From assembly GCA_003506795.1 (NCBI GenBank), contig DNYO01000002.1, positions 1 to 47,424 on the forward strand: 47,424 bases of DNA, read 5' to 3'. A program made the translations under genes and the position numbers. Origin of the DNA: Deltaproteobacteria bacterium (GTDB taxonomy: Bacteria; Desulfobacterota; Syntrophorhabdia; Syntrophorhabdales; Syntrophorhabdaceae). Below are positions 19,146-47,387 of the stretch, piece by piece (the first letter of the stretch is position 1; every line of letters begins with the position of its first letter). The notes beneath the pieces were generated by a model. The model had not been told where the DNA came from. It saw only the letters and a program-made list of their open reading frames with translations, and ran no database searches.

Positions 19146-19155
19146 AGGACGGATC

Positions 19156-21311: not shown

Positions 21312-21316
21312 CGCCC

Positions 21317-22384: not shown

Positions 22385-22398
22385 GCACGGGGACCGAT

Positions 22399-23343
22399 AT
22401 GAAAGCGCTTGTCATCGGGCTTGGATCGATCGGGCGGCGCCAGGCCTCTTTGTTGGCCGGGCGGAAGGGAATCGAGCTCCGGGCTTTCCGCTCGGATCCC
22501 CGGTCCGGTCCCAACGATCTCGGCCTTCCGGAGATGAGGGACTGGAGCGAAGCGTCCCGCTGGGCGCCGTTCGCCGCGTTCATCTGCAACCCGACCTACC
22601 TCCATCTCGAGACCGCGCGGCGGTGCGCCGAGCTCGGCTGCCCGCTGTTCATCGAAAAGCCTCTGGGTGCGGCCCGCGAAGGGCTGGACGAGCTTCTCGA
22701 AGTCGTCGGGCGCCGGGGCATCGCGACGTATGTCGCCTACAACCTCCGCTTTCATCCCGTCATCGAGCGCCTCCGGCAGTGGGCCGGAGAGCACCCGGTC
22801 CTCCATGCCCGGATCGTCTGCACGTCCCATCTCGGCCTGTGGCGCCCGGCGGCCGCTCCCCTGAAGACGTACAGCGCCTATCGAAGCCAAGGTGGCGGAG
22901 CCATGCTGGATTTATCGCACGAGCTGGACTATGCCGACTGGATCCTCGACGGCATCACCAAGATCGACGGCCGGTTGGGCCGCCGCGGCCGGGTGACCGA
23001 GGACGCCGAGGATTGCGTCGACCTTTTGCTTGAGGGCCGGCGGGGGTGGGCCGACGTTCACCTGAATGTCCTCAGCCATCAGCGCCAGAGGACGATTCAA
23101 ATCGACGCCGAGGACATGACCGTCGCCGGAGATCTTGTCGACGCCTCCCTGTCCTCTTTCCATCATCACGAGCTCGTCGAAAAGACGGATTATGGGTTGG
23201 CCATCCAAGACACCTATGATCGTCAAATCGATTACTTCCTTGCCCATATCGACGATCCGCGGATGATGAACAACGTCTTCGCCGCCGCGGAATTGTTGCG
23301 AAAGATGATCGGCTTCAAGGATGCCCATGAACCCTCGGAATGA
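22399..23343 (+). CDS. ptmF: Gfo/Idh/MocA-family oxidoreductase, at the PtmF position of leg/ptm clusters
   Basis: MKALVIGLGSIGRR Rossmann N-terminus and EKP motif (FIEKPLG). It sits between the ptmE-like and cytidylyltransferase genes, as I recall for C. jejuni Cj1329-Cj1331. Confidence 0.55.
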   Translation: MKALVIGLGSIGRRQASLLAGRKGIELRAFRSDPRSGPNDLGLPEMRDWSEASRWAPFAAFICNPTYLHLETARRCAELGCPLFIEKPLGAAREGLDELLEVVGRRGIATYVAYNLRFHPVIERLRQWAGEHPVLHARIVCTSHLGLWRPAAAPLKTYSAYRSQGGGAMLDLSHELDYADWILDGITKIDGRLGRRGRVTEDAEDCVDLLLEGRRGWADVHLNVLSHQRQRTIQIDAEDMTVAGDLVDASLSSFHHHELVEKTDYGLAIQDTYDRQIDYFLAHIDDPRMMNNVFAAAELLRKMIGFKDAHEPSE

Positions 23344-24049
23344 CTTTCTGATCACGATCTGCGCCCGGGGCGGCTCCAAGGGCGTGAAGAACAAGAATAT
23401 CCGCCCTTTGCTGGGCAAGCCTCTGATCGCCTACACCATCGAACAGGCCCTTTCCTGGGGCCGCGCCGAACGGGTTGTCGTCAGCACGGATTCTCCCGAG
23501 ATCGCCGAGGTCGCCAAGCGGTACGGCGCCGAGGTTCCCTTTCTCCGTCCCGCCGAATTGGCTACGGATCACGCGGGCAAGCTCGCCGCCCTCAAGCACG
23601 CTTTTCTTGCAAGCGAAAAGCTCTTCGACAAGAGCTATGGCTTTCTGGTTGATTTGGATGCCACGGCACCCGTCCGGACGCGGGACGACTTGGACCGCTG
23701 TCTCGAGGATTTCCTGGCCTATGATCCACCGACGCTCTTCAGCGTCGTTCCGGCCCGCAAGAGCCCGTATTTCAACATGGTCGAGGTCTCTTCGGAAGGC
23801 CGGGTCGGAATCTGCAAGCGTCTGGAATCCGGAGTCCTTCGCCGTCAGGATGCGCCGGCGGTCTACGAGATGAACGCTTCGATCTACTTCTACCGGCGGG
23901 ACTACCTTTTGGCGCCGGGAACCGTCTCCCCGATCTGCGAAACGAGCCGGCTTCATATCATGGATGCGCGGACTTCCCTGGACATCGATACGGAGTGGGA
24001 CTTTCGCTATATCGAATTCCTGTTGAAAGAGGGCTTGGTATGTCTGTGA
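23327..24049 (+). CDS. legF: CMP-nonulosonic acid synthetase (acylneuraminate cytidylyltransferase family), LegF/NeuA-like
   Basis: ICARGGSKGVKNKN motif typical of the CMP-NeuAc synthetase family. AAGGA lies 5 nt before ATG 23327. ATG 23321 is also possible. Confidence 0.8.
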   Translation: MNPRNDFLITICARGGSKGVKNKNIRPLLGKPLIAYTIEQALSWGRAERVVVSTDSPEIAEVAKRYGAEVPFLRPAELATDHAGKLAALKHAFLASEKLFDKSYGFLVDLDATAPVRTRDDLDRCLEDFLAYDPPTLFSVVPARKSPYFNMVEVSSEGRVGICKRLESGVLRRQDAPAVYEMNASIYFYRRDYLLAPGTVSPICETSRLHIMDARTSLDIDTEWDFRYIEFLLKEGLVCL

Positions 24050-24840
24050 CCAGCTATTTGGACCGGTTCCGATTGGACGACCAGATCGCGTATGTGGCCG
24101 GTGGATGCGGCCTTCTCGGCCGGGAAACGGCTGTCGCCTTGGCCGAAGCCGGGGCCAAAACAGTCATCCTTGACCTGGCCGACGAACAGGGCCGGGCTTT
24201 AAGCCAATCGCTTCGCTCTGCCGGGCACCAGGCCGATTTCGCCCATTTCGACATCACCAGGCTGCAGCGCTTGGAGAAGGACCTTGTCCGGTTGACCGAT
24301 CAACACGGCCTTCCCCAGGTCTGGGTGAACGCGGCTTACCCGCGAACCGCGGATTGGGCTCTTCCCCTGGAGCAGGGAACCGCCGCCTCGCTCAGAAAGA
24401 ACGTCGACTTGCATCTCAACGCCTATGCCTGGCTCAGCCGTTCGGTGGCGCTGCTGATGAAATCCGGCGGAATCCACGGCTCGATCATCAACTTCGGCTC
24501 CATCTACGGCGTCGTCGGGAACGATTTCACGGTATATGAGGGAACATCTCTGACATCGCCCATGGCCTATTCCTTGATCAAGGGGGGGATCGTCAACCAG
24601 GTCCGATACCTGGCGTCCTATTTCGGAAAATCGGGCATCCGGGTGAATTCGATCTGCCCGGGCGGGATCCAGGCCGGACAGAACTCGAGATTCATCAAGA
24701 ATTATTCGCGGAAGGTCCCGCTGGGGAGGATGGGAACGCCGGAAGACATCGCCGGAGCGGTTCTTTTTCTCGCCTCTCCGGCTTCGTGCTATATCACCGG
24801 GGCGACGTTGATGGTCGATGGGGGATGGACCGCGATCTGA
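24040..24840 (+). CDS. ptmA: short-chain dehydrogenase/reductase, PtmA-like
   Basis: Classical SDR pattern: glycine-rich VAGGCGLLGRE, NAAY, and S…YSLIKGG. It is the last gene of the coupled operon, and ATG 24040 overlaps the previous stop by 10 nt. Confidence 0.65.
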   Translation: MSVTSYLDRFRLDDQIAYVAGGCGLLGRETAVALAEAGAKTVILDLADEQGRALSQSLRSAGHQADFAHFDITRLQRLEKDLVRLTDQHGLPQVWVNAAYPRTADWALPLEQGTAASLRKNVDLHLNAYAWLSRSVALLMKSGGIHGSIINFGSIYGVVGNDFTVYEGTSLTSPMAYSLIKGGIVNQVRYLASYFGKSGIRVNSICPGGIQAGQNSRFIKNYSRKVPLGRMGTPEDIAGAVLFLASPASCYITGATLMVDGGWTAI

Positions 24841-28590: not shown

Positions 28591-30129
28591 GTGCACGGTA
28601 GTATATTGGCGAAAGTCGAGACGTCGTCTCTTCCCTCGGGCAAGCTCTTTTCTGCGAGCTTGATTTATACTGTTGGAGATTTCCTTACGACGGCCATCTC
28701 CGGCTTTCTCCTTATACCGGTCTATTTGCATTACATGACGCCTGCTGACTACGGTATATACAGTACGGTTACAGTCCTAATCAATATGCTCGGAGTCCTA
28801 TTGGCGATGGGCCTGGGCTCTGCCTTGGGGCGATTCTACTTCCTCTATCGTGACCGGGGGGAGGAATACCGGTATCTTGGGAGTATCTGGCTCTTTCAGA
28901 TATTAGTTTCGCTGGCCCTGGTAGTGGCTTTGGCCCTTTGGGGCTCGCCCCTCTGGGCTGCTATCTGTCCCGAAATCCCCTTCCGCCCTTACATCTGGTT
29001 CGTGCTTGCAGGCTCCTTCCTTACTTTCAGCGCTAGTGTCTATCCCTTGTGGCTTAGAGTCCTGGAAAGGCCCGTTGCATTTGTGATCCTGCAGGTCGCA
29101 GGGACCGCTGCCTTTGCGTTGTCCCTGGGCGTGTTTCTGATCCTGCTGCGGCAGGAAGCGCAAGGAGCACTAGGCGCTGCGATTTTTTCCAACGCTCTCA
29201 TTGCACTGGTGGGCCTCGTGGCCCTCGGCAGGAAAGCCACTTGGAGGATCCAGTACAATCTCCTGCGGCCCTCCCTCGACTTCGGAAGGTGGATGGTCAT
29301 CGGGACCTTCGGATACTTCTTTCTGAACAAATCTCAGCTCTTCTTTCTGCAGCACTACGGTGACATGGCTTCCGTCGGCGTCTACAACCTCGGACTGCAG
29401 TTGGGCGGTATCTTGACACTCCTGGCCCTCTCCTTTGCCAAGGCGTGGCAGCCCTTTGTGTATTCCGCGAAGACGTCGGGCGAGGCGGCGGATGCCATTT
29501 CTTCCACGTCGAAGTATTTCGTCGCCGTCATGTTGTACGGGATGCTGGGAATCGCCGTTCTCTCTAACGAGATCCTCCGCGTTGTGGCGAAACCTGATTA
29601 CTTCAAGGCCGGAATCGTCATCAGGCTTGTGGCAATCGCTTCCTTCGTCTACGTCCTATCGAACCTCACCAACACGGGCCTCTTCTACATGAAGAGGCCC
29701 GAATTGGCCCAGGCGGCCATGCTCCTTTCAGCTGGACTGAATGTTGTCCTGAACATGATCCTCATCCCGCGGTGGCAGATGGTGGGGGCCGCCCTGGCGA
29801 TGCTGGCCGCCTTCTCTGTGATGGTCATTTCCGGTTTTTTTTTGGTGCAAAAAGTGATGCACGTGAAGTACGACTGGGCAATGCTTGTTAAGATCACGGG
29901 GATTGGGACGGGACTCCTAGTGACTGAGTGGCTTCTCATTCCCCAGAGGATCGGGTTCCTCGAATCGGGCATCCGGGTGGCTCTCCTGGCCGCCTTTCCC
30001 CTGCTTCTATGGCTGGGGCGCGTATTCAGCAAATCGGAGATCAAAGCGATCCTGTCACAAATTAGCACCACACTCTCCTATATAAGGCGGGCGTTGAAGA
30101 GAAAGACTACCGTGAGCAGACCTGTTTGA
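28591..30129 (+). CDS. wzx: polysaccharide/O-unit flippase, Wzx-like (MOP superfamily)
   Basis: 512 aa with a GTG start and about 12-14 hydrophobic helices throughout. This is the typical Polysacc_synt membrane-protein profile, in a Wzy-dependent gene context. Confidence 0.75.
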   Translation: MHGSILAKVETSSLPSGKLFSASLIYTVGDFLTTAISGFLLIPVYLHYMTPADYGIYSTVTVLINMLGVLLAMGLGSALGRFYFLYRDRGEEYRYLGSIWLFQILVSLALVVALALWGSPLWAAICPEIPFRPYIWFVLAGSFLTFSASVYPLWLRVLERPVAFVILQVAGTAAFALSLGVFLILLRQEAQGALGAAIFSNALIALVGLVALGRKATWRIQYNLLRPSLDFGRWMVIGTFGYFFLNKSQLFFLQHYGDMASVGVYNLGLQLGGILTLLALSFAKAWQPFVYSAKTSGEAADAISSTSKYFVAVMLYGMLGIAVLSNEILRVVAKPDYFKAGIVIRLVAIASFVYVLSNLTNTGLFYMKRPELAQAAMLLSAGLNVVLNMILIPRWQMVGAALAMLAAFSVMVISGFFLVQKVMHVKYDWAMLVKITGIGTGLLVTEWLLIPQRIGFLESGIRVALLAAFPLLLWLGRVFSKSEIKAILSQISTTLSYIRRALKRKTTVSRPV

Positions 30130-30146
30130 GCGGGCAATGGAGCGAA

Positions 30147-31748
30147 ATGCGAGTACGAATAAAAGAGCTGCTGAAGGAGATAAAGCCCCTCAGGGACCTC
30201 CGGATAGCCTACGCCGACGGTAGATTCGACCGTCAGACCAGGGGATTCGTCCGTAGGTATTTCCAGGAGGGGCACACGCGGACCGAGGGAAAAGAGATCG
30301 GCTTTGTGGTCGAACCCTGGCCACTCGACACCGCACTGCCCTCTTATGTCGTGGTCCTGGCCATGGCATTCATGCATCGTGGGCGGCGCGTCCGGATCTT
30401 GTGGGATGACACGCCGTTTGCGACGGGGCCTGGCAACGAGAGGTACTTGCAGCGTCGCATTGGGCGAGTCCTGGAGAGACTGCCCGCTGCCCTACCCGTA
30501 AGTAGGCTTTCGAGTTACTCCCCCGATGCTGTGTCCCTGCTCAGCGGGGAAGACTTCGCCTCGCTCGCGAGGTTGAACACCTTCCGCAAGTTTCTTACGG
30601 AGACGCCTCCTGAGGTGAGCCGGGGCTTCGAAGAAGCGGCCCGCAGGACACTCAACCTCACCGCACGGCGCGTCCAGACCCTATACGGGGCTCTCAAACT
30701 CGACTATGTGATTGCACCCGGGGGCATATACAGAACCAGCGGGGTGTTCGTTAAGGTCGGAAAGAAGATGGGGGTTCGGGTTGCAACACTGGACAGTGGG
30801 CCCACCGTTCTGTTGATAAGTACCGATGGCGTCGCTTCCTATCTGGACGATATACCTAGGGCCTTTCGCGGCCTGAAGCCGGAGGACGACTGGGTCATCG
30901 AAGAGGCGCGTGAGGAGTTCGACCGGCGACTCAAAGGCTCCGACGCCTTCAACTATCAGCGGGTGGCCGCCGCGGGCAACGTGGTATGGAATGGCGTGCT
31001 CATACCGCTCAACCAGAGCTTCGATTCCTCTGCACTCGGTCGGCATCGCGTGTTCGGAAGCCAGACCGATTGGATGCTGGAAACTGTCGCCTGGCTCCTC
31101 GAACATACCACCGAGGACGTGGCGATCCGGCGCCATCCCGTCGAGCGACTCGAAAGGATGAAGAGCCGCGACGATTACAGAGGTAGACTCATGGAGCGCT
31201 TCGGAACAGAACGGCGGATCAGGTACATCGGGGCGGACGAGCCGGTGAACACCTATGACTTGCTTCTCGGGGCTCGGGTGGTGATCCCTCATGTCTCGAC
31301 GGTCGGAATAGAAGCCGCAGCGCTCGGCATCCCCGTGGTGACGCAGAGCGACAGCTACTACGCCGACATGGGTTTCGTATGGAGCGCCAAGACCAGGGCG
31401 GAATACATCGACCTCTTGAGGAAGGCGGTTTCGGGTGAGCTCAGGGTAAGCGAATCCCAAAAAGCCGACGCATGGCGGTGCTACTATCTTTCCCAGCGGT
31501 GCAACTTCTTTCCCTCGCGATTTACTCCGGGCCAGATCACCTCCATCGTGAGAGAGTTACCCGGTTCGATCTTGAGCGGGAAAGACATAGATACGCTTTG
31601 TCAGGCGTACGAGAGCAATAGCCCCCTCGCCCAAGTCGTTCATAATATGAAGCGAGAAGCGGTCTCTGGTGGGTCTGATTCCACGGGTGTTTTTCGGGGG
31701 ATTAGGACCAAAAATGAGGAAGAGAGTCCTGAGAGAAAGAATATTTAG
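30147..31748 (+). CDS. capsule-biosynthesis-type (KpsS/KpsC, Capsule_synth-like) putative glycosyltransferase; candidate nonulosonic-acid transferase
   Basis: 533 aa from ATG 30147, with GGAG 4 nt upstream. The track ORF starts at TTG 30126. Patterns seen: VLIPLNQSFDSSAL…FGSQTDWMLETV…VAIRRHPVE and …VIPHVSTVGIEAAALGIPVV. These resemble the …llPLQ..D.q…f.s…w…lv.K.HP… pattern of Capsule_synth proteins as I recall it. The CDS call is firm; the family call is tentative. Confidence 0.5.
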   Translation: MRVRIKELLKEIKPLRDLRIAYADGRFDRQTRGFVRRYFQEGHTRTEGKEIGFVVEPWPLDTALPSYVVVLAMAFMHRGRRVRILWDDTPFATGPGNERYLQRRIGRVLERLPAALPVSRLSSYSPDAVSLLSGEDFASLARLNTFRKFLTETPPEVSRGFEEAARRTLNLTARRVQTLYGALKLDYVIAPGGIYRTSGVFVKVGKKMGVRVATLDSGPTVLLISTDGVASYLDDIPRAFRGLKPEDDWVIEEAREEFDRRLKGSDAFNYQRVAAAGNVVWNGVLIPLNQSFDSSALGRHRVFGSQTDWMLETVAWLLEHTTEDVAIRRHPVERLERMKSRDDYRGRLMERFGTERRIRYIGADEPVNTYDLLLGARVVIPHVSTVGIEAAALGIPVVTQSDSYYADMGFVWSAKTRAEYIDLLRKAVSGELRVSESQKADAWRCYYLSQRCNFFPSRFTPGQITSIVRELPGSILSGKDIDTLCQAYESNSPLAQVVHNMKREAVSGGSDSTGVFRGIRTKNEEESPERKNI

Positions 31749-37677: not shown

Positions 37678-39340
37678 GCTTTGCCGTTTCGATGGCTCAC
37701 CAATTGCGGTGGTCCAGACAATAGGCCTAGCCCCGGGGCTATCCAAGGCTGGAGAAACCACAAGAAGGTAATATCTAAACTCAAATCTTTGGTTGCGCAT
37801 CCATTCGTCACGTGCGACTTAAGGGAGGATGGTTGGCGTTTATCACAGCTAGCCAAAGATCAAAGCGATCATTGATTAGAATACCATTCAAATGGATCTG
37901 TTACTATACGTTGGAGGCCGGGCCATTAACGTCTACTTGAGCGACTTCATTCAGTATGCGACGAATGCATTATGCGGTAGTTTGTTGAGGGCAAGTTGTA
38001 TCTATAAAATCTTGACGCGCTTATCCTTCCAATCGGCCGAGATTGTCTTTGATAATGGCGAATACCCAAATATGAGAGCCCGAGAACTGGCCCCCATGTG
38101 CTGCATCGAATCCGTGCTCCTCGGCATCGATTTAGTTCGGTTTTTCCCAACCTTGGAGCACGAATGATCGGTAAGCGGAGCTTGCGCAAGGGGTCTCATG
38201 TGCGGCTATCACAACTAGTGCCTCGTTAGATAACTCGCCGTAATCCAACAGACCGCGTCGGATTTCGTTATAGCATTTCCATTAAGCGGCCGCCTTTAAT
38301 GCAAGGCTAAAGCTCAAGCAGATGAAGTGACGAGTGCCAGATTGAGGAGCGAGTAATGTTTTTTGTAGGCGTCGCTAGTAAAATATTTCGAGAGAGTCTA
38401 CATTTCGGGGATACCCTCATGTCGATAGATGATGGGATGACTTCCTCCATGCTAGAGGACACAATCTGCGGATTGTTCCCCATCCTTCCCGAGTTCCTAC
38501 TAAATTGGGAAAGGTTTTATCCCGCCTGTCACTGGGCTTTTCAAAAGTGTTCCGCTTATAACTCGAAACATGTACCTCCTGACCATGGGCCTCAGAGGAA
38601 CTTCACAGCCGGAGGGTTTACAAGCCTAGCTGCATACAAAGCGGAAGCATGAGGTGGTCCGGTGGCATCCGGGTTCGATCATTACTGCAAGGCGCACATC
38701 TTTAATCTATAGGGATGCATGAGTTGTGTGCAGGTCTCTGAATTGCGTTCCTTAACGATTGCGGGCACAAGAGGAACAAGTCCCTTTTGATGTTGCGTAA
38801 TTAAAGTCAAGTTGCTAGGGAATTTCCCGAGAGGAGTACGCTTTCTCCGGAAGACGGATTTCAACCGGTGTTTGCTCCAATTTAGGACCTTGCTTGGGAA
38901 GCGGGTCTGTTTGGGCTGTGCGTCGGGGTACCGGTATCGCTGGATATAAGGGATGTGTGATTAGAAATCTTTATGGATACCGCGCCGAGGCCAAAACATA
39001 CGTTAGCAATTGAGGCCTAACGTCAATTTATCGAAAAGCGCGAAGAGCTTGCAAGGTGACATTAGCTTTAGCCGGAATCACTAGCCTGTTTGTAGAATGG
39101 GCGCGTCGTGTGGGGCTAATCTGAAAAGAGCGAAAAATAGTTTTTGATATGAGTTGTGCGGTGATACCACCATCACCTGTCGATAAGAGCCAAACCGGTC
39201 TTTGTTGGAATGAGCTCGGCATCGATCCTGAAAAATCGATTCATAGTCTACTTATCTGGTAAGATCAGGCCAAAGTTTGATCCTGATACAATCAAAAAAC
39301 ACCATGCCTATTGGCAAGAGGTGGGGCTTGAGGTGCGCCT

Positions 39341-40911: not shown

Positions 40912-42240
40912 TTGTCGGCCTCCCAATGGGGGGTTGCGAGGTCGGTTTGCGTTGTCCCGATAGAGGGGAAGGCTATAAGTAGGATCTGGCTGATTACCAC
41001 AGGCGAGCCCCTGCCGCTGGAGGCGGAGCGTCCGCATCGCACGGGCATGCTTGCGAACAAATTGGTCGATGCGGGACACGATGTAACATGGTGGACGACT
41101 ACGTTCGATCATCAAACAAAGTCCTTTCTGTACCGACGGGACTCCCGTCTTTCCTTGAGAGCCGGGGTGGAGCTTGTCCTTCTACACGGCAGGACACCAT
41201 ACTGGAGGAACGTATCGGTTAGGCGGTTGATCAATCACATTCAGGTGGCCCGATCATTCAGGTGTCGGGCAGCATTGGCACCAAGACCCGATGTCATCGT
41301 GTGCTCATTCCCCACCATAGATTTAAGCCGTGAGGCGGTTCGGTTCGGCCGCGCCCGCCAAGTGCCCGTCGTCATCGATGTTCGTGACTTGTGGCCGGAT
41401 ATTTTCGTATTTCCCTTTCCGCCGCCGTTCCGCAGTCTTGTCCGGACCGCGCTTATTCCATATTTCTGCTGGACAAAGGAAGTCTTTTCTAATTGCGATG
41501 CTATCGTTGCTGTATCCAGTTTTTACCTCGATTGGGGTCTACGGAATGGAAAACGTACTCACACTCCGAGTGAGCGTGTCTTTCCTTTGGGATACCCCCC
41601 TCCTGAGACTCGTTTAGGCAATCTTGACGAGCAGAAGGCGTATTTTACGCAACAGGGCATCAATCCGGCGAAGAAAACGGTCTGGTTTGTCGGGACTTTC
41701 GGACGCACCTATGACCTTCTGCCCATAATCGAGTGTGCACGAAGCATGAAGGACAACCGAAACGTTCAATTCGTCATCACGGGCGATGGCGAGAAGCGAA
41801 GACTCTGGCAGAATGCAGCGAGTGGTCTGGATAATGTCTTCTTCACCGGTTGGGTAAGTGGAGATAAATTGGAGTATCTAATGCGCCTGGCGACAGTGGG
41901 CCTTATGACTTATGCGCCAGATGCACCGCAGGGGTTGCCGAATAAGATATTCGAGTACATGGCGGCTGGACTGCCGATTCTATCCTCCCTGCGCGGTGAG
42001 ACGCGTAAGTTATTGGAATATCACCGAATTGGTTTCACTTATGATCCACAAGATCCTGCAGACGCGCTCGCAAAACTCCGCGTTATGATATCCGACTCGA
42101 CGTTGTCCCAAGAGATGGGAGAGAAAGCACGGAGACTCTTCGAGAGCGAGTTTTCAGCTGATCGGGTCTATGGTCAGTACGCAGAATATATCCGAGAGGT
42201 TGCTCTGAATGGACCCAAGCCCACCCCGCATAGGCTGTAG
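40912..42240 (+). CDS. GT4-family glycosyltransferase (WbuB/WcaI-like)
   Basis: RIWLITTGEPLPLE…HRTGMLANKLVDAGHDVTWWT N-terminal domain, and C-terminal GLPNKIFEYMAAGLPILSS. The only in-frame start upstream of the conserved core is TTG 40912, which gives a ~22-aa extension, so the start is uncertain. Confidence 0.75.
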   Translation: MSASQWGVARSVCVVPIEGKAISRIWLITTGEPLPLEAERPHRTGMLANKLVDAGHDVTWWTTTFDHQTKSFLYRRDSRLSLRAGVELVLLHGRTPYWRNVSVRRLINHIQVARSFRCRAALAPRPDVIVCSFPTIDLSREAVRFGRARQVPVVIDVRDLWPDIFVFPFPPPFRSLVRTALIPYFCWTKEVFSNCDAIVAVSSFYLDWGLRNGKRTHTPSERVFPLGYPPPETRLGNLDEQKAYFTQQGINPAKKTVWFVGTFGRTYDLLPIIECARSMKDNRNVQFVITGDGEKRRLWQNAASGLDNVFFTGWVSGDKLEYLMRLATVGLMTYAPDAPQGLPNKIFEYMAAGLPILSSLRGETRKLLEYHRIGFTYDPQDPADALAKLRVMISDSTLSQEMGEKARRLFESEFSADRVYGQYAEYIREVALNGPKPTPHRL

Positions 42241-42855
42241 TATAATCTGGATGATGCTGCGTACATTCGGATGCGTAGCGCGCAAGGCCTAATAGAAAAC
42301 ATCGGCCTAATGAAACGTGCAATCGACTTAGTTATCTTAAACACGCTCCAATATCCGTGTCCACCAGAAACATGTTGGCGGGAAAATATTTTTACTAACC
42401 AACTCGGGCAAAAAGGTTACCCGGTATGGGTGTTGCTCAACGTTGGGAAGAATGCTCGGCACTGAATGAAAGCCCCCTTAGAGCTGTATGATGATTATTG
42501 TGGTTATTAAGGAAGGAGTATCCATATATCCTTAACGCTAATATGACTTTATTCTAACGATCAAAAATATGGTCATCGAGTACTTGAGTGTTAGGCTGCT
42601 TGCTCTGGCTATAAAGAACTGGGGAGTTCGGAGCGGGCTTCTATCCTTAGCAATCGGGTATCCAGAAGGACTCACAGCCAACCTGGTTTGTGTTGCTGAA
42701 GGCAGTCTACTTCTAAATGAACTAATCCGCAATGCGGAAAGCGCTTACAAATAATCGTTCCAAACAGAAAAGGTATCTACCGCCATTATGAAACGTCTCC
42801 ACCGGGCGTGGCAAGACCACGGAAGTGTCAGCGGTGGCTTAAGGAGGTAATCGCA

Positions 42856-43767
42856 ATGGGAGATCGTAGTATTTGGTTTAAGGGTCGAATGGTTGAAACT
42901 AAAGACGCAAAAGTCGCCGCGTTGTCGCCTACAGCACAGTTCGGCTTGAACGTCTTTGAGGGCATTCGTGCTTACTGGAACGACAGTCTGAGACAACTTT
43001 ACGCTTTTCGCCTTAAGGAGCACTTTGACCGCTTGGCGCGGTCAAGCAAACTACTGGGCATCGAATGTCGCTATGGGGCCGACGATATGAGAAAGAACAT
43101 CATTGATACAGTAAGATACAATGAGTACAAGGAGGACATCGCCATCCGCATGACGGTCTTCATCGATGGAGAAGGCTCATGGACCTCCACGGATCCCTCT
43201 GATATGTTCATTGCGCCAATCCGGAAGCCCAGGACGGACACGAACAGAGTTAAAGGCCTTACTTCTTGCGTATCAACCTGGCGACGCATCGGCGACAATA
43301 ATCTCCCGCCACGAGTCAAAGCAGGGGCCAACTACATTAACGGGCGTTACGCCCACCTCGAGGCGAAACGTAATGGATACGACCTTCCCATCCTTCTCAA
43401 TGCGGAGGGCAAGGTGGCGGAGGGCGCAGGTTCGTGCCTGTTTCTTGTGTGCAACGGGGTGTTAACTACTCCTACTTTAACTTCATCAGTTCTTGAAAGT
43501 ATTACCAGGGCAACGCTGCTCGAAATAGCCGAGAAAATGGGAATCAAGACGGCCGTTAGAGAAATTGACCGAACCGAGTTATATATGGCTGAGGAGTTGT
43601 TCCTGTGTGGAACTGCTGCGGAGGTCACTCCCATTGTTTCTGTGGACCGTCTAATCGTTGGGAACGGGGGCACTGGCCCAATAACAATGTCTCTGTTGAA
43701 AAGATACCTGGCCATTGCGAGTAACGAGGATTCCTCCCGCCCTGATTGGCTAACTGCACTTTATTAA
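42856..43767 (+). CDS. class IV (fold-type IV) PLP aminotransferase, branched-chain/D-amino-acid aminotransferase family
   Basis: IWFKGRMVETKDAKVAALSPTAQFGLNVFEGIRAY matches the IlvE/Dat-type N-terminus. A strong RBS AAGGAGG (42841-42847) lies 8 nt before ATG 42856. Confidence 0.8.
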   Translation: MGDRSIWFKGRMVETKDAKVAALSPTAQFGLNVFEGIRAYWNDSLRQLYAFRLKEHFDRLARSSKLLGIECRYGADDMRKNIIDTVRYNEYKEDIAIRMTVFIDGEGSWTSTDPSDMFIAPIRKPRTDTNRVKGLTSCVSTWRRIGDNNLPPRVKAGANYINGRYAHLEAKRNGYDLPILLNAEGKVAEGAGSCLFLVCNGVLTTPTLTSSVLESITRATLLEIAEKMGIKTAVREIDRTELYMAEELFLCGTAAEVTPIVSVDRLIVGNGGTGPITMSLLKRYLAIASNEDSSRPDWLTALY

Positions 43768-43784
43768 TAATGTGCCGGAGCGAG

Positions 43785-44432
43785 ATGACGAGACAGCGCA
43801 TAAAAATATCACCCGCCAAAACGATGCCATATGGAGGGGTGAAGCGCTCCTTGGATATTCTTATCGCAATTATTCTGATAATCCCTTTCGGGGTGATAGT
43901 TCTCTTTGCTGCCATACTTATTAAACTGGGCTCACCAGGCCCGGTTCTATTTGCGCAAAAAAGACTTGGTCGCAATGGCCGACCCTTCACAATGTTAAAG
44001 TTTCGGACCATGGTTACTAACGCAGAGCAGATGCCTGAAGGGCTATTCAGTTACGCCGACGATCCTCGCGTTACATGGATAGGAAGGAGGTTGCGTGCGA
44101 CCAGTATCGATGAATTGCCGCAACTCATAAACGTGCTCTGTGGAGACATGTCGGTCGTTGGTCCACGCCCACCTGTAACCAATGAGCTTGGTGATTATGA
44201 TAACTTAACGGAAGAAAGAAAGATTCGCTTTATGGTCAAGCCAGGTATAACTGGGCTCGCTCAGGTTTCAGGACGGAATTATCTTGACTGGTCGAAAAAA
44301 ATTATTTATGACAACTGCTATATCGAAAATTTTCGACGGCGGGGCATATTTGAGGACTTGAGGATATTAATGCTCACCCTAGGCGTGGTAATTAATATGA
44401 AAGGTATTATCGAGCGGAAACCAGAGGTGTAA
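43785..44432 (+). CDS. initiating phosphoglycosyltransferase, small monotopic Bac_transf family (PglC/WbaP C-terminal type)
   Basis: KRSLDILIAIILIIPFGVIVLFAAILIKLGSPGPVLFAQKRLGRNGRPFTMLKFRTM…DELPQLINVLCGDMSVVGPRP. The start is uncertain between 43770, 43785 and 43824; GGAG precedes 43785. Confidence 0.85.
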   Translation: MTRQRIKISPAKTMPYGGVKRSLDILIAIILIIPFGVIVLFAAILIKLGSPGPVLFAQKRLGRNGRPFTMLKFRTMVTNAEQMPEGLFSYADDPRVTWIGRRLRATSIDELPQLINVLCGDMSVVGPRPPVTNELGDYDNLTEERKIRFMVKPGITGLAQVSGRNYLDWSKKIIYDNCYIENFRRRGIFEDLRILMLTLGVVINMKGIIERKPEV

Positions 44433-44434
44433 TT

Positions 44435-45679
44435 ATGGTGCTTTGGGACGAGGCCGAGCGAACAGCAGCGGAATATGGCGATAGCTTTTATATATACGAT
44501 GAGGAGCGTTTCGTAGGGAACTTTAAAGCCCTTGAGCGTGCCTTTGCGGAGCAATATGAGCCGACGCATCTAGCCTATTCTTATAAAACGAACTACACGC
44601 CTGACATTTGCAAAATGGTCAATCAGCTTGGAGGGTACGCTGAAGTCGTATCCGATATGGAGTATGTGCTAGCAGGAAAGCTCGGCGTTGATGGAAAGAG
44701 AATCATCTACAACGGGCCCTACAAAACTGCCCCGTCGCTGCGCAGCGCCCTCTTCTCTGGCTCGATCATCAATATCGATTCATTAAGTGACCTCGATATT
44801 GTTATGCAAATTGCATCCGAGCATCAGGATCGAGACTTTACTCTTTCCGTTCGCTGCAATTTCACGCTGGATGGGAAGTTGGACTCACGGTTTGGACTAG
44901 ATGTCGAGGGGAAAGAATTTAAAGAAGTGATAGGGCGATTGAGTAGAGGAAGGAACACGCGACTGGTCGGATTGCACTGCCATTATCCAAATAGAGATTT
45001 GACTTCCTTCGCCACGCGAGCCCGGAAGATGCTCGATTTGGCGCGTGCGATATTCACAGAGCCACCCGACTTCCTAGATATTGGCGGCGGATTCTATGGA
45101 GAGATGCCCGATGAACTGAAGTCGAAGCTATCGGTCGTGCCAGCCACCTTTGCGGATTATGCGTCGCTAATAGGAGGCCTCTTTAGAGACGCCTATCCGA
45201 AGCCCGGCGTGAGGCCAACGCTGGTAATCGAGCCGGGAACAGCGCTCGTAGCGAATACGTTTAGCTTCGTAGCCAAGGTCGTTGGAGCTAAAACCGTCCG
45301 CGGTCGGCGAATTATGACTGTGGCTGGAAGTATTTTCAATATAAGTCCAAATACGCGATCGGGCAATCTGCCGGTGACCGTGTTAAGGCGAAAGGCGCTT
45401 GAGGACGTGACGGCGAGTTATGGGCCGGTTGATATTGCAGGGTACACATGTATTGAAAATGACTACTTGACCAAGTCATATGGGGGCGCTCTGGATGTGG
45501 GTGATTACGTAAAATACGACAACATAGGCTCGTATTCCATAGTGATGAAGCCTCCGTTTATTTTTCCAAATGCGCCCATTTTGAAGAAGGTTAGCAATGG
45601 CAGGGACTACGTGCTGATCAAGGAGCGGGAGCCTTATGATTACATCTTCGAGAATTTCCGAGGGCTGAAATGGACCTAA
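44435..45679 (+). CDS. PLP-dependent decarboxylase, fold-type III (Orn/DAP/Arg decarboxylase family)
   Basis: SFYIYDEERF…LAYSYKTNY (Lys region), FLDIGGGF, VIEPGTALVANT and GYTCIENDYL motifs in the family order. RBS AGAGG lies 6 nt upstream. Confidence 0.75.
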   Translation: MVLWDEAERTAAEYGDSFYIYDEERFVGNFKALERAFAEQYEPTHLAYSYKTNYTPDICKMVNQLGGYAEVVSDMEYVLAGKLGVDGKRIIYNGPYKTAPSLRSALFSGSIINIDSLSDLDIVMQIASEHQDRDFTLSVRCNFTLDGKLDSRFGLDVEGKEFKEVIGRLSRGRNTRLVGLHCHYPNRDLTSFATRARKMLDLARAIFTEPPDFLDIGGGFYGEMPDELKSKLSVVPATFADYASLIGGLFRDAYPKPGVRPTLVIEPGTALVANTFSFVAKVVGAKTVRGRRIMTVAGSIFNISPNTRSGNLPVTVLRRKALEDVTASYGPVDIAGYTCIENDYLTKSYGGALDVGDYVKYDNIGSYSIVMKPPFIFPNAPILKKVSNGRDYVLIKEREPYDYIFENFRGLKWT

Positions 45680-46512
45680 TCTACATTACCAACGTTCCCC
45701 TGCGAGCCATTGTTGCACAGCGCGCCGGGGTTGACAGGGTGATGGTCGACCTGGAGATAATTGGCAAAAAGGAGAGGCAGGGAAATCTAGATACTGTTAT
45801 ATCTAACCATAATCTCCGTGACGTTGAGGAGATGAGGGCCATCTTAAAGACAAGCAATTTGATGGTCCGCATAAACCCCATTCACGATAATTCCAATGAG
45901 GAAATAACTCGAGTCATAAGATTAGGTGCGGAAATCGTCATGTTGCCAATGTTTAGGAGGGTCGCTGAGGTTCGTGACTTCGTAAGGATGGTGAGCGGGA
46001 GAGCGAAGACTTGCCTTCTCCTTGAAACTGGGAGCGCCCTGGCACGGGCTCGGGAAATTCTTGGCCTCGATGGCATAGACGAAGTATTTATTGGTTTAAA
46101 CGACCTCCACTTGGAGTTAAAGCTCGACTTTATGTTCGAGGTACTTGCCGGTGGCCTGATAGATTACTTGGCATCTATCCTGCGTGACAAGAAATGCAAG
46201 TTCGGTTTCGGAGGCGTTGCAAGGATTGGGAAAGGCAAGCTCAAGTCAGAGTTGGTCTTATCGGAGCATCGGCGCCTGGGGTCCTCGCTGGTCATCTTAT
46301 CGAGAGACTTTAACCGACTGTTTGAGAGCGAGAACGAAGATATTGCGTCTCGCCGTTTCGCTGATGATGTTCGAGCTATACGAACACGAGTATCAGAACT
46401 TAAGAATGCCGATGTGTTTGAACTGCAAAGAAATGCAGAAGAATTGAAAAGATCAGTTCGCGAGATCGTGAGCGGGAGTGAACTGGACCCACATAATGGA
46501 GCAGGGCATTAA
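45670..46512 (+). CDS. HpcH/HpaI aldolase / citrate-lyase-beta-like TIM-barrel protein
   Basis: VDRVMVDLE…MVRINP…RLGAEIVMLPMFRRVAEVRDFV…LLLETGSALARAREILGLDGIDEVFIGLNDLHLEL fits the family's metal-binding E…D pattern. It overlaps the decarboxylase stop by 10 nt. This is assigned by eye only. Confidence 0.55.
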   Translation: MDLIYITNVPLRAIVAQRAGVDRVMVDLEIIGKKERQGNLDTVISNHNLRDVEEMRAILKTSNLMVRINPIHDNSNEEITRVIRLGAEIVMLPMFRRVAEVRDFVRMVSGRAKTCLLLETGSALARAREILGLDGIDEVFIGLNDLHLELKLDFMFEVLAGGLIDYLASILRDKKCKFGFGGVARIGKGKLKSELVLSEHRRLGSSLVILSRDFNRLFESENEDIASRRFADDVRAIRTRVSELKNADVFELQRNAEELKRSVREIVSGSELDPHNGAGH

Positions 46513-46586: not shown

Positions 46587-47387
46587 TGCGGTATTAGGGG
46601 CCCCGGGGGGCATGATGTCGATCTCAGCGACTTTCGTCATCGGGGCATCAACGAGTTCTCGATCCGCAAGGGCCACGTTTACATGACTTCCTTCAGCGAT
46701 CTGAAGGCTTCTCGGGTCGTATACCTTGCGGAAGGCCGGAAAAAGGGCGTGGTCGAGGAGTTCCTCGAGGATCTCCAAGCCCGGGAGGTCGATCCCGCCA
46801 AGATCCAGGTCGTTTGCTGCGATATGTGGGATCCCTACCTGAACGAGATCGGGATGTTCCTAAAGAACGCTCCGGTGGTCTTTGATCGGTTCCACGTCAT
46901 GGGCCAAATCAATCTGGCCTTGGAGACTGTCCGCCGTCGGGAGCAGCGGGAGAACACTGTCTTGAAGAAAAGCCGGTTTCTGTGGCTGAGGAATCCGAAG
47001 AACTTGACTGAGAAACAGAAATCGCGGCTGGCCTCTTTGACATCGCAATATTTGAAGACGACCTGCGCCCATCGGATCAAGCTGGCGCTGGCCCGGTTCT
47101 GGGAGATCCGGGATCCCGCCGAAGCCATCACCTACTTGAAGCGCTGGTACAACTGGGCGACGCACAGCCGGCTCTATCCTATCATCCGGGCAGCCCGGAC
47201 TATCAAACGTTACTGGCATGGGATCATCAACTACTTGAAGACACACGTGACGAACGAGACGGTGGAAGGCCTGAACTCGAAGATTAAAACCGCGATGAAG
47301 CGCGCCTACGAATTCAAGCACGTCGACTATCTCCGGACAATAGTCTATCTTGTCGCCGTTCGGCTAAGCTTCAGCTACCCACAGTAA
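46587..47387 (+). mobile_element. 5'-truncated ISL3-family transposase remnant
   Basis: The C-terminal two-thirds of the ISL3 DDE domain are present: …GINEFSIRKGHVYMTSFSDL…VVCCDMWDPY…VFDRFHV…LWLRNPKNLTEKQ…THVTNETVEGLNSKIKTAMKRAYEFK. The frame is open only back to a TGA at 46584-46586. The N-terminal ~150+ aa (zinc-ribbon/HTH part) are absent. The canonical GIDEF reads GINEF. Confidence 0.8.

What the first reader, a model, noticed from the sequence alone, without database searches (positions are those of the whole stretch)
42856..46512. Aldolase + class IV aminotransferase + PLP decarboxylase cassette wrapped around the initiating phosphoglycosyltransferase
Four genes are tightly packed: 17 nt and 2 nt of non-coding spacing, then a 10-nt overlap. 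They begin with a strong AAGGAGG after a 570-bp AT-rich spacer. They encode an IlvE/Dat-type aminotransferase, a PglC-type PGT, an Orn/DAP-type decarboxylase and an HpcH/HpaI-type aldolase/lyase. None is a standard sugar-nucleotide enzyme.

A coherent chemical reading has three steps. The aldolase condenses pyruvate with a small aldehyde to a 4-hydroxy-2-oxo acid. The aminotransferase converts that to an amino acid. The decarboxylase then yields an amino alcohol or amine. The product could serve as a non-carbohydrate substituent on the glycan, amide- or phosphodiester-linked.

Alternatives are supply of a D-amino acid or a polyamine. I know of no described polysaccharide-decoration pathway with this enzyme trio.
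Basis: inference. Interest (0 to 1): 0.7.

Follow-up and report, generated by a model that had tools for sequence, protein, structure and literature searches.

The report
Aldolase-based branched amino-sugar starter module
These four tightly packed genes are one version of a widespread, uncharacterised module that most likely welds pyruvate onto the first sugar of a surface polysaccharide and then trims it to a short amine side-branch, chemistry not yet described for any enzyme.

Summary
Four co-directional genes encode an IlvE-like class IV aminotransferase (AT4), a small PglC-type phosphoglycosyltransferase (PGT), an Orn/DAP-type PLP decarboxylase (DEC) and an HpcH/HpaI-like barrel protein (ALD). 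They end a Wzx/Wzy polysaccharide locus that also makes a legionaminic-acid-type sugar.

They are not housekeeping genes. The same four genes recur, in shuffled order, in at least eight bacterial phyla, and the trio without a PGT recurs in one archaeal MAG. ALD belongs to a large family (664 clusters at 50% identity).

In 65 of 82 surveyed loci ALD lies within 3 kb of a small PGT. Its partners are alternative 2-oxo-acid enzymes: AT4+DEC, D-2-hydroxyacid dehydrogenase, Ldh_2, or AsnB-type amidotransferase.

Natural fusions link ALD to the PGT, a GT4, a PglF-type 4,6-dehydratase domain, both reductases, DegT and DEC. A DEC–AT4 fusion also exists.

Best reading (inferred, about 0.55): ALD adds pyruvate to the C4 keto group of UDP-4-keto-6-deoxy-HexNAc, AT4 transaminates the branch, DEC decarboxylates it to a 2-aminoethyl branch, and the PGT starts the repeat unit. 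The known sugar shewanellose matches the amidotransferase variant.

A free small amino alcohol attached later is less likely.

The parts
42842..42848 (+). Shine-Dalgarno AAGGAGG, 7 nt upstream of the AT4 start codon
   Evidence: Read directly.
42856..43767 (+). AT4: IlvE-like class IV (fold type IV) aminotransferase with a remodelled side-chain pocket. Proposed to transaminate the 2-oxo-acid branch.
   Evidence: Pfam Aminotran_4, 1.4e-45. TIGR01122 ilvE_I 264.9 bits against a cut-off of 245.55; NF005146 277.5 against 279. Best PDB matches are BCATs, 1e-70. K159, E193, Y164, R97 and the G256-T/S-A loop are kept, but Y95 becomes A/S/T, M107 becomes S/T and W126 becomes K/R in all 14 cassette copies.
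43785..44432 (+). Small monotopic PglC-type phosphoglycosyltransferase (215 aa). It starts the repeat unit on undecaprenyl phosphate and is a conserved member of the module.
   Evidence: Pfam Bac_transf, 9.6e-60, covering 178 of 179 profile positions. It matches only the C-terminal catalytic part of the large PGT models. A small PGT lies within 3 kb of ALD in 65 of 82 loci. PGT-ALD fusion proteins exist.
44435..45679 (+). DEC: fold-type III PLP decarboxylase of the Orn/DAP/Arg family. Proposed to decarboxylate the amino-acid branch to an amine.
   Evidence: Pfam Orn_Arg_deC_N plus Orn_DAP_Arg_deC. Below every equivalog cut-off: FslC 137.5/500, lysA 136.5/297.9, TIGR03099 74.7/478. Nearest structures are FslC 7kh2, LysA and BtrK. 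Three homologs sampled from the DEC side all sit in the same cassette. ALD-DEC and DEC-AT4 fusions exist.
45670..46512 (+). ALD: HpcH/HpaI-like (beta/alpha)8 barrel with a C-terminal helical tail. Proposed pyruvate-dependent C-C bond-forming enzyme that acts on the 4-keto nucleotide sugar.
   Evidence: Pfam HpcH_HpaI, 45.4 bits; all 27 aligned homologs hit only this family significantly. AF2 model pLDDT 91.7. Foldseek best matches are class II pyruvate aldolases and pyruvate-kinase barrels, TM 0.6-0.69. E119 and D145 align with the metal-ligand motifs of HpaI-type aldolases. R67 is invariant.
40912..42240 (+). GT4 glycosyltransferase that sits directly upstream of the cassette. Likely adds the second sugar onto the lipid-linked branched sugar.
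   Evidence: Pfam Glycos_transf_1/Glyco_trans_4_4. It falls in one homology cluster (c18) with the GT4 just upstream of the cassette in Geomonas L001, Flavobacteriales L003 and L007. GT4-ALD and PGT-GT4-ALD fusion proteins exist, though whether their GT4 domains are of this c18 type was not checked.
46683..47387 (+). ISL3-family transposase remnant (C-terminal two thirds only) that bounds the cassette. It hides whatever lay downstream, where relatives carry a PglF-type dehydratase.
   Evidence: Pfam DDE_Tnp_ISL3, 5e-62. NCBIfam transpos_ISL3 matches model positions 142-369 of 370. All six displayed metagenome contigs carrying this ALD end at or in the stretch just downstream of ALD that holds this element; five of them include the transposase gene. 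A PglF-like gene follows ALD in L001, L003 and L005.

Best explanation
The cassette is the starter-sugar module of this polysaccharide locus. It is proposed to build a C-branched amino sugar on the nucleotide level, in five steps.

1. A PglF/WbpM-type 4,6-dehydratase makes UDP-2-acetamido-2,6-dideoxy-hexos-4-ulose from UDP-GlcNAc. This enzyme is not visible here because the contig ends at an IS remnant.
2. ALD, a divalent-metal class-II-aldolase-like barrel, adds the enolate of pyruvate to the C4 ketone. This gives a 4-C-(2-oxo-2-carboxyethyl) branch.
3. AT4, a BCAT-like enzyme whose hydrophobic pocket has become larger, polar and cationic, transaminates the 2-oxo acid to a 4-C-(2-amino-2-carboxyethyl) branch.
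4. DEC removes the carboxylate and leaves a 4-C-(2-aminoethyl) branch, which is a primary amine.
5. The small PGT transfers the sugar 1-phosphate to undecaprenyl phosphate. The upstream GT4 then extends it.

What is shown:
- gene content and tight packing;
- cross-phylum co-conservation;
- mutually exclusive sets of 2-oxo-acid tailoring enzymes;
- natural fusions;
- retained catalytic motifs;
- the altered AT4 pocket.

What is inferred: every substrate and product, and the order of steps.
For: Conservation of the cassette:
- The four genes recur together in Geomonas, Mesorhizobium, Flavobacteriales, Verrucomicrobiota, Gammaproteobacteria, Acidobacteriaceae, Bacteroidales, Negativicutes, Clostridia and Planctomycetota. 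At least five gene orders occur.
- An archaeal MAG keeps DEC-AT4-ALD without a PGT, flanked by short SDR genes that resemble the dehydratase only weakly (23% identity).

Survey of 82 ALD loci:
- A PGT lies within 3 kb in 65 of them.
- AT4+DEC is present in 16 loci and never co-occurs with 2-Hacid_dh, Ldh_2 or AsnB. The main exclusive sets are 2-Hacid_dh only (16 loci), AT4+DEC only (14) and AsnB only (8).
- Two unrelated 2-oxo-acid reductase families, a BCAT-type transaminase and a carboxylate amidotransferase appear as alternatives. This identifies the ALD product as a 2-oxo carboxylic acid.

Fusion proteins:
- PGT-ALD: two loci and four further clusters at 50% identity
- PGT-GT4-ALD and GT4-ALD
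- ALD-Polysacc_synt_2, the dehydratase catalytic domain (P0384)
- CoA_binding_3-ALD
- ALD-DegT
- ALD-2-Hacid_dh and ALD-Ldh_2
- ALD-DEC
- DEC-AT4

Other points:
- A PglF-like gene is adjacent to ALD in L001, L003, L005 and L055.
- No ligase or acyltransferase is co-conserved with the cassette, so ALD itself is the only candidate for making the linkage.
- ALD keeps the Glu and Asp metal ligands and an invariant Arg at the HpaI Arg70 position. Its fold is closest to class II pyruvate aldolases.
- The known sugar shewanellose is 2-acetamido-2,6-dideoxy-4-C-(3'-carboxamide-2',2'-dihydroxypropyl)-D-galactose (PMC4052302). That is exactly pyruvate added at C4 and then amidated. It matches the ALD-PGT-AsnB variant.
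- In S. putrefaciens A6 shewanellose accompanies an 8-epilegionaminic acid derivative. The window likewise carries a legionaminic-type gene set.
Against: - No enzyme of this family has been assayed, and no glycan structure is known for any carrier found here.
- The link to shewanellose is untested. No Shewanella or Morganella appeared among the named hits.
- No PglF-type dehydratase is present in the window. One lies within 10 kb in only 5 of 16 AT4+DEC loci, or 6 if a truncated copy at a contig end is counted.
- Four Clostridia loci carry an ALD-DEC fusion plus AT4 with no PGT nearby. L053, the one examined in detail, places them next to alanine dehydrogenase, a GH127 hydrolase and a GT1. The trio can therefore exist outside a Wzx/Wzy locus.
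- Loci that combine DegT, acetyltransferase and 2-Hacid_dh with ALD (7 of 82) do not fit one simple linear pathway.
- HpaI His45 is not conserved: the motif is DLE-I rather than DxEH. Sequence alone cannot separate aldolase-like from CitE-like chemistry.
- The ALD-dehydratase fusion rests on a single assembled contig.
Confidence: 0.55

Rival explanations
1. ALD condenses pyruvate with a small free aldehyde (formaldehyde, acetaldehyde, glycolaldehyde or glyoxylate). AT4 and DEC convert the 4-hydroxy-2-oxo acid into a free amino alcohol or amine. Another enzyme then attaches it to the glycan.
For: - The chemistry is coherent for HpcH-type aldolases.
- Four Clostridia loci hold ALD-DEC plus AT4 with no PGT or Wzx/Wzy genes nearby; L053, the one examined, has alanine dehydrogenase next to AT4.
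- A PglF-like gene is missing from most AT4+DEC loci within 10 kb.
Against: - No ligase, ATP-grasp, nucleotidyltransferase or phosphotransferase is co-conserved with the cassette.
- The PGT is a conserved member of the module, and ALD is fused to the PGT, GT4, DegT and a 4,6-dehydratase domain.
- The AT4 pocket changes are towards smaller and cationic residues (Y95A/S/T, M107S/T, W126K/R). This suggests a bulky anionic substrate, not a small hydroxy acid.
Confidence: 0.2
2. AT4 replaces PglE and aminates the C4 ketone of the nucleotide sugar directly, as an (R)-amine-transaminase-like reaction. ALD and DEC make a separate small substituent or act on another sugar of the repeat unit.
For: - Class IV enzymes include ketone-accepting amine transaminases.
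- AT4+DEC loci mostly lack DegT (14 of 16).
- In gene order, AT4+DEC occupy the place that DegT and the acetyltransferase hold in other ALD loci.
Against: - AT4 keeps the BCAT carboxylate-binding loop G-T/S-A and Arg97, and it passes the ilvE_I model cut-off. Both point to a 2-oxo-acid substrate.
- AT4 never occurs without DEC, and a DEC-AT4 fusion exists. This ties AT4 to an amino-acid product that DEC consumes.
- ALD and DEC would be left without a linked role, despite the ALD-DEC fusions.
Confidence: 0.1
3. ALD acts on phosphoenolpyruvate or oxaloacetate rather than as an aldolase. One example is a phosphonopyruvate-type route, in which the transaminase and decarboxylase would give an aminoethyl-phosphonate-like head group for the glycan.
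For: - The barrel is in the PK/PEP-utilizer/PEP-mutase fold class, and pyruvate kinases are among the best fold matches.
- Three of 27 homologs give a faint PEP_mutase hit at 0.006.
- Reductase and transaminase branch points on phosphonopyruvate are described in the literature (preprint 10.1101/2021.04.07.438883, listed but not read).
Against: - Every member hits HpcH_HpaI and none reaches the PEP_mutase threshold.
- No cytidylyltransferase or LicD-type transferase is co-conserved.
- An AsnB partner and a dehydratase fusion make no sense for a phosphonate route.
Confidence: 0.05
4. The aminotransferase and decarboxylase are ordinary ilvE and lysA genes that happen to lie next to glycan genes.
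For: AT4 passes the TIGR01122 ilvE_I cut-off. Source annotations call the DEC homologs diaminopimelate decarboxylase.
Against: - Co-location with ALD and the PGT holds across phyla, with shuffled gene orders and fusions.
- DEC scores 136.5 against a lysA cut-off of 297.9.
- The AT4 pocket residues are changed in all cassette copies.
Confidence: 0.02

Closest known systems
Class II (divalent-metal) pyruvate aldolases HpaI/HpcH, YfaU/RhmA and SwHKA (Pfam HpcH_HpaI)
   Same: Same (beta/alpha)8 fold, TM about 0.62-0.69. The Glu and Asp metal-ligand motifs align. An invariant Arg sits at the Arg70-equivalent position (HpaI numbering is from my own knowledge).
   Different: - Only about 15-20% identity.
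- Far below the HpaI and RhmA equivalog cut-offs.
- His45 is not conserved.
- Extra invariant basic residues (K33, R36, R212) and a C-terminal pair of long helices.
- Lives in glycan loci and is fused to the PGT, GT4, DegT or dehydratase, not in aromatic or sugar-acid catabolism.
- The proposed electrophile is a nucleotide-sugar ketone.
Shewanellose, the C-branched sugar of the Shewanella putrefaciens A6 O-antigen. Its structure is known. I know of no described biosynthesis, and the searches found none.
   Same: Its structure (PMC4052302) equals pyruvate added at C4 of a 2-acetamido-2,6-dideoxy-hexos-4-ulose plus amidation. This matches the ALD-PGT-AsnB loci. It occurs together with a legionaminic-type acid, and the window also has a legionaminic-type gene set.
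   Different: The window has AT4+DEC instead of AsnB, so the predicted branch is 2-aminoethyl, not 2,2-dihydroxy-3-carboxamidopropyl. The genetic link between ALD and shewanellose producers was not tested.
PglF-PglE-PglD-PglC module for UDP-diNAcBac in Campylobacter jejuni N-glycosylation (own knowledge)
   Same: A compact starter-sugar module. A 4,6-dehydratase makes a 4-keto sugar, tailoring enzymes act on it, and a small monotopic PGT transfers it. Many ALD loci carry exactly PglF-DegT-PGT-acetyltransferase plus ALD.
   Different: Tailoring here uses an aldolase-like enzyme, a class IV aminotransferase and a fold-type III decarboxylase, instead of a DegT aminotransferase and a hexapeptide acetyltransferase.
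YerE-type ThDP-dependent branching of CDP-4-keto-3,6-dideoxyhexose in yersiniose biosynthesis (own knowledge)
   Same: A carbon unit derived from pyruvate is added to the C4 ketone of a nucleotide sugar to give a 4-C-branched sugar.
   Different: A different enzyme family and cofactor: ThDP with an acetyl carbanion and loss of CO2, against a metal-bound pyruvate enolate that keeps the carboxylate. No further transamination or decarboxylation follows.
N-citrylornithine decarboxylase FslC, diaminopimelate decarboxylase LysA and Glu-ACP decarboxylase BtrK
   Same: These are the best structural relatives of DEC. The PLP-lysine motif SYKTN, the GGGF loop and the C-terminal TCIEND and GSYS motifs are present (read; motif roles are from own knowledge). 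All three act on amino acids that carry a large distal group.
   Different: Below every equivalog cut-off. EPGR is replaced by EPGT. DEC occurs only with ALD and AT4 in the contexts sampled.
Branched-chain amino acid aminotransferase IlvE (E. coli 1I1K)
   Same: Full-length homology, and it passes TIGR01122. The catalytic Lys159, Glu193, Tyr164, Arg97 and the 256-258 loop are conserved.
   Different: The hydrophobic side-chain pocket is replaced: Y95A/S/T, M107S/T, W126K/R, and Y129 is variable (the roles of these residues are from own knowledge). The gene context is glycan synthesis, not ilv genes. Automatic annotation as ilvE is probably wrong.

Membership tests
HpcH/HpaI class II pyruvate aldolase superfamily | Pfam HpcH_HpaI match above the gathering score | tested here: met
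   45.4 bits against 25. All 27 aligned homologs match, best 6.7e-15.
HpcH/HpaI class II pyruvate aldolase superfamily | (beta/alpha)8 barrel of the PK-like class | tested here: met
   AF2 model pLDDT 91.7, pTM 0.89. Foldseek best matches are HpaI, HpcH, YfaU and pyruvate-kinase barrels, E about 1e-9 to 1e-10.
HpcH/HpaI class II pyruvate aldolase superfamily | Glu and Asp ligands of the divalent metal (HpaI Glu149 and Asp175) | tested here: met
   LLLET (E119) and GLNDL (D145) align with MIET and IGPTDL of HpcH/HpaI aldolases. Both are invariant in 27 homologs.
HpcH/HpaI class II pyruvate aldolase superfamily | Catalytic Arg (HpaI Arg70) and His45 of the DxEH motif | tested here: inconclusive
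   R67 in VRIN is invariant and lies about 26 residues before the LPM strand, as Arg70 does in HpaI (the HpaI sequence is from memory). The His is not conserved: the motif is D27-L28-E29-I30.
HpaI / RhmA equivalogs (catabolic aldolases) | NCBIfam equivalog score cut-off | tested here: not met
   TIGR02311 19.4 against 368.8; NF007521 18.3 against 441.
CitE / malyl-CoA lyase of central metabolism | Orthology to citrate lyase beta or acyl-CoA lyase, with a metabolic gene context | tested here: not met
   Only weak matches: 1sgj E 0.015, and acyl-CoA lyase beta 5e-5 with a profile. No NCBIfam CitE hit. The context is glycan genes in 68 of 82 loci.
IlvE branched-chain aminotransferase | Equivalog model cut-offs | tested here: inconclusive
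   TIGR01122 is met (264.9 against 245.55). NF005146 is narrowly missed (277.5 against 279).
IlvE branched-chain aminotransferase | Hydrophobic side-chain pocket (Tyr95, Met107, Trp126, Tyr129 of E. coli IlvE) | tested here: not met
   A/S/T, S/T, K/R and variable residues, respectively, in all 14 cassette AT4 sequences. The reference sequence was verified against 1I1K.
LysA diaminopimelate decarboxylase | TIGR01048 equivalog cut-off | tested here: not met
   136.5 against 297.9.
FslC and the exosortase-associated decarboxylase (TIGR03099) | Model cut-offs | tested here: not met
   137.5 against 500, and 74.7 against 478.45.
Small monotopic PglC-type phosphoglycosyltransferase | Complete Bac_transf catalytic domain in a protein of about 200 aa, without the large N-terminal membrane domain | tested here: met
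   Residues 20-203 cover profile positions 1-178 of 179. It matches only the C-terminal positions of WcaJ- and WbaP-type models.
Shewanellose-type C-branched sugar pathway (proposed here, not an established family) | ALD homolog present in strains known to make shewanellose | not testable with these tools
   No named Shewanella or Morganella hit among the 120 best relatives of a Pseudomonas ALD.
Shewanellose-type C-branched sugar pathway (proposed here, not an established family) | Enzyme activity: pyruvate addition to a UDP-4-keto-6-deoxy-HexNAc | not testable with these tools
   Requires a biochemical assay. It is supported only indirectly, by fusions and neighbourhoods.

The most novel reading that the evidence does not exclude
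The HpcH-like proteins found next to small PGTs are a large, unrecognised family of nucleotide-sugar C-branching aldolases. They add pyruvate to the 4-keto intermediate. Interchangeable partner enzymes then produce a whole series of 4-C-branched starter sugars: 2-oxo, 2-hydroxy, carboxamide (shewanellose), acetamido, amino-acid and aminoethyl branches. This occurs at more than 530 places in species-representative bacterial genomes and in one archaeal MAG. The window's version would give a cationic 4-C-(2-aminoethyl) sugar. Together with the legionaminic-type acid encoded in the same locus, that would make a zwitterionic surface polysaccharide.
Probability: 0.5. Interest if true: 0.85.

Novelty: new variant of a known kind. 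Interest (0 to 1): 0.72.

Why it matters
If correct, this names the missing enzymology for C-branched sugars such as shewanellose. To my knowledge its structure has been known for about two decades with no described biosynthesis, and seven full-text searches found none.

It would add a third way of branching nucleotide sugars, beside SAM-dependent methyltransferases and ThDP-dependent YerE.

It predicts several sugars not yet seen by chemists. These would occur in gut Clostridia, soil and marine Bacteroidota, pseudomonads, planctomycetes and others.

It flags a systematic annotation error: cassette genes are called ilvE, lysA, alanine racemase or RhmA.

A free amine on the first sugar, next to a nonulosonic acid, would make a zwitterionic glycan. 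That class has known immunomodulatory effects.

The hypothesis is directly testable with four purified proteins and LC-MS.

Tried and rejected
- Literature: seven completed full-text searches found nothing on this trio or on HpcH-like genes in glycan loci. One further search was rejected for syntax. Only the shewanellose structure was retrieved.
- Link to shewanellose producers: I searched relatives of a Pseudomonas ALD hoping for named Shewanella or Morganella hits, and found none among the 120 listed. My recollection that Arenibacter certesii makes shewanellose was not borne out by the review I read, so I dropped it.
- Downstream context: I looked for the window's downstream genes in other assemblies. 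All six displayed contigs carrying this exact ALD break at or just before the ISL3 remnant.
- Dehydratase in the window: none is PglF-like. There are only remote SDR matches at 23-24% identity.
- Promoter, terminator and Rfam scans of the spacer and cassette were at chance level or empty.
- Phosphonate (PEP mutase) reading: rejected on family assignment and partner genes.
- Housekeeping ilvE/lysA reading: rejected on scores, pocket residues and conservation.
- The context of the ALD-dehydratase fusion P0384 could not be seen, because the gene lies at a contig end.
- My simple ORF caller miscalled genes in high-G+C loci (for example L005, L019 and L073). The statistics were therefore redone with tblastn.

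Full report
**Observation**

The window's last 4.6 kb holds four co-directional genes:
- AT4, 42856-43767
- PGT, 43785-44432
- DEC, 44435-45679
- ALD, 45670-46512

They are separated by 17 nt and 2 nt, and the last pair overlaps by 10 nt. All end in TAA. AAGGAGG lies 7 nt before the first ATG. The upstream spacer is 615 nt rather than 570, and it is only mildly AT-rich: 45% G+C against 54% for the window.

Pfam assigns Aminotran_4, Bac_transf, Orn_Arg_deC_N/Orn_DAP_Arg_deC and HpcH_HpaI.

**Setting**

The rest of the window is a Wzx/Wzy-type polysaccharide locus:
- a Wzz-like protein and a long SLBB/Poly_export exporter;
- a nine-gene set typical of legionaminic-acid-type nonulosonic acid synthesis, at 16383-24840;
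- a flippase and a KpsC/S-like Capsule_synth protein;
- four GT4 enzymes, a Wzy_C polymerase and two SDR epimerases.

An ISL3 transposase remnant follows ALD. All six displayed metagenome contigs that carry this exact ALD break at or just before it, and five of them include the transposase gene. The genes originally downstream are therefore unknown. No PglF-type dehydratase is present in the window.

**The individual proteins**

- AT4 is a full-length relative of branched-chain aminotransferases. Its best PDB matches have E about 1e-70, and it passes the TIGR01122 cut-off.
- DEC is below every equivalog cut-off (lysA 136.5 against 297.9; FslC 137.5 against 500). Its nearest solved relatives are FslC, LysA and BtrK.
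- ALD matches HpcH_HpaI weakly (45 bits) and is nowhere near the HpaI or RhmA equivalogs.
- The ALD AlphaFold model is confident (pLDDT 91.7). It most resembles class II pyruvate aldolases and pyruvate-kinase barrels, with TM about 0.6-0.69.
- The profile alignment places E119 (LLLET) and D145 (GLNDL) on the metal-ligand motifs of HpaI-type aldolases. R67, at the Arg70-like position, is invariant. The His of DxEH is not kept.

**Conservation**

ALD belongs to a large family:
- more than 5,000 clusters at 90% identity among the scored candidates;
- 664 representatives at 50% identity with E ≤ 1e-30;
- at least 533 places in species-representative genomes, spanning many bacterial phyla and one archaeal MAG.

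The same four genes sit together in Geomonas subterranea, Mesorhizobium sp. A623 and a Flavobacteriales MAG. They also sit together in Verrucomicrobiota, Gammaproteobacteria, Acidobacteriaceae, Bacteroidales, Anaerovibrio and Clostridia.

I then started independently from DEC. Three of three sampled homologs (43-51% identity, including Rosistilla ulvae) lie in the same cassette. At least five gene orders occur, so selection rather than recent common descent keeps the genes together. A GT4 of one homology cluster precedes the cassette in the window, in Geomonas and in two other loci.

**What varies around ALD**

I surveyed 82 non-redundant loci.
- A small PGT lies within 3 kb of ALD in 65 loci and within 7 kb in 68. 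Four of the 14 exceptions are at contig ends, and one is archaeal.
- The partners fall into nearly exclusive sets:

| Partner set | Loci |
|---|---|
| D-2-hydroxyacid dehydrogenase only | 16 |
| AT4+DEC only | 14 (16 in all) |
| AsnB-type amidotransferase only | 8 |
| DegT plus hexapeptide acetyltransferase | 8 |
| Ldh_2 only | 3 |

- Partner identities were confirmed by Pfam.
- AT4+DEC never co-occurs with either reductase or with AsnB.
- Two unrelated 2-oxo-acid reductase families, a BCAT-type transaminase and a carboxylate amidotransferase are thus interchangeable. This identifies the ALD product as a 2-oxo carboxylic acid, as expected if pyruvate is the nucleophile.

**Fusions**

ORF continuity and Pfam show these fusion proteins:
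- PGT-ALD (L016, L022 and four further clusters at 50% identity);
- PGT-GT4-ALD and GT4-ALD;
- ALD-DegT (four loci);
- ALD-2-Hacid_dh and ALD-Ldh_2;
- ALD-DEC;
- DEC-AT4 (P0328);
- ALD fused to a Polysacc_synt_2 4,6-dehydratase catalytic domain (P0384);
- ALD fused to the CoA_binding_3 domain, which also forms the N-terminal part of the PglF-like protein of L001.

Together the fusions link PGT, ALD, DEC and AT4, and they link ALD to the enzyme that makes 4-keto-6-deoxy sugars.

**Mechanism proposed**

1. A PglF-type dehydratase makes UDP-4-keto-6-deoxy-HexNAc.
2. ALD adds pyruvate at C4.
3. AT4 transaminates the new 2-oxo acid.
4. DEC decarboxylates it to a 2-aminoethyl branch.
5. The PGT loads the sugar phosphate on the lipid carrier, and the upstream GT4 extends it.

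Three further observations fit this scheme.
- The conserved module contains no ligase or acyltransferase, so ALD is the only candidate for making the linkage.
- In all 14 cassette AT4 sequences the catalytic residues and the carboxylate loop of E. coli IlvE are kept. The hydrophobic pocket residues are replaced: Y95 by A/S/T, M107 by S/T and W126 by K/R. This suggests a larger, anionic substrate (reference sequence verified; residue roles are from my own knowledge).
- The known sugar shewanellose is 2-acetamido-2,6-dideoxy-4-C-(3'-carboxamide-2',2'-dihydroxypropyl)-D-galactose, found with an 8-epilegionaminic acid derivative (PMC4052302). That is exactly the product expected from the ALD-PGT-AsnB variant. 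The window likewise pairs the cassette with legionaminic-type genes.

**Caveats**

- Nothing has been assayed, and all substrates are inferred.
- The link to shewanellose producers could not be tested.
- A PglF-like gene lies within 10 kb in only 5 of the 16 AT4+DEC loci, or 6 if a truncated copy at a contig end is counted.
- Four Clostridia loci have ALD-DEC plus AT4 and no PGT nearby. L053, examined in detail, places them beside alanine dehydrogenase, a GH127 hydrolase and a GT1. The free-metabolite model is therefore not excluded there.
- Loci that combine DegT, acetyltransferase and a reductase with ALD need a second sugar or a different order of steps.
- The ALD-dehydratase fusion is seen on one contig only.

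**Comparison and novelty**

The architecture mirrors the PglF-PglE-PglD-PglC starter module, but the tailoring enzymes are different. The concept resembles YerE-type branching, but the enzyme family and cofactor are different. Seven completed full-text searches found no description of HpcH-like enzymes in glycan loci or of this trio.

I rate it a new variant of a known kind, namely a nucleotide-sugar tailoring module tied to the initiating transferase. The predicted chemistry is new.

My confidence that this is a dedicated glycan module rather than housekeeping genes is about 0.9. My confidence in the specific C4-branch mechanism is about 0.55.

Noticed in passing
window 16383-24840: Nine consecutive genes form the set typical of legionaminic-acid-type nonulosonic acid synthesis: SDR dehydratase, DegT aminotransferase, PglD-like acetyltransferase, NeuB, hydrolysing 2-epimerase, CBS-NTP transferase, GFO/IDH/MocA oxidoreductase, CMP-transferase and an SDR. 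Shewanellose in S. putrefaciens A6 also accompanies an 8-epilegionaminic acid derivative.
   Followed up: partly
window 46683-47387: An ISL3 transposase remnant lacking about the first 140 residues of the family model. All six displayed metagenome contigs with this ALD break at or just before it, so it is probably a repeated element. One source is JGI sample 3300002219, with records named SCADCLC.
   Followed up: partly
window 37678-39340: A 1.66-kb stretch inside the polysaccharide locus has no ORF longer than 98 aa on either strand, at 48% G+C. It may be a decayed gene or a regulatory region.
   Followed up: no
window 420-7190: A 2256-aa protein combines Peptidase_C39-like, LGFP, BACON and Kelch repeat domains. 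It is probably a large surface or secreted protein.
   Followed up: no
window 7620-10073: Two convergent AAA_14/DUF4143 ATPase genes (7620-8750 on the + strand, 8739-10073 on the - strand) overlap by 12 nt at their 3' ends.
   Followed up: no
window 30126-31748: A 540-aa protein gives a weak Capsule_synth (KpsC/KpsS-like) match. It could be the transferase for the nonulosonic acid.
   Followed up: no
window 42856-43767 and homologs: AT4 scores above the NCBIfam ilvE_I cut-off. Sources name DEC homologs 'diaminopimelate decarboxylase' or 'alanine racemase', and ALD homologs 'RhmA' or 'citrate lyase beta subunit'. These are probably systematic misannotations.
   Followed up: partly
L031, L044, L053, L073 (Clostridia MAGs): An ALD-DEC fusion (about 700 aa) plus AT4 lies outside any Wzx/Wzy locus. 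In L053 it sits between a GH127 beta-L-arabinofuranosidase and an alanine dehydrogenase, with a GT1-family glycosyltransferase nearby.
   Followed up: partly
L010 (archaeal MAG, ALD at 6319-7122): DEC-AT4-ALD occur without a bacterial-type PGT, flanked by several short SDR genes (about 320 aa) that match the PglF-like query only weakly, at 23% identity.
   Followed up: no
P0414 (427 aa, representative library): A response-regulator receiver domain is fused to the N-terminus of an ALD domain. This hints at regulated activity in some lineages.
   Followed up: no
L035, L036: A more distant DEC homolog (35-36% identity) occurs without AT4. In L035 the gene next to it belongs to cluster c47, which reads as an ATP-grasp protein by eye and was not checked against Pfam. 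This may be a different amino-acid-ligating variant.
   Followed up: no
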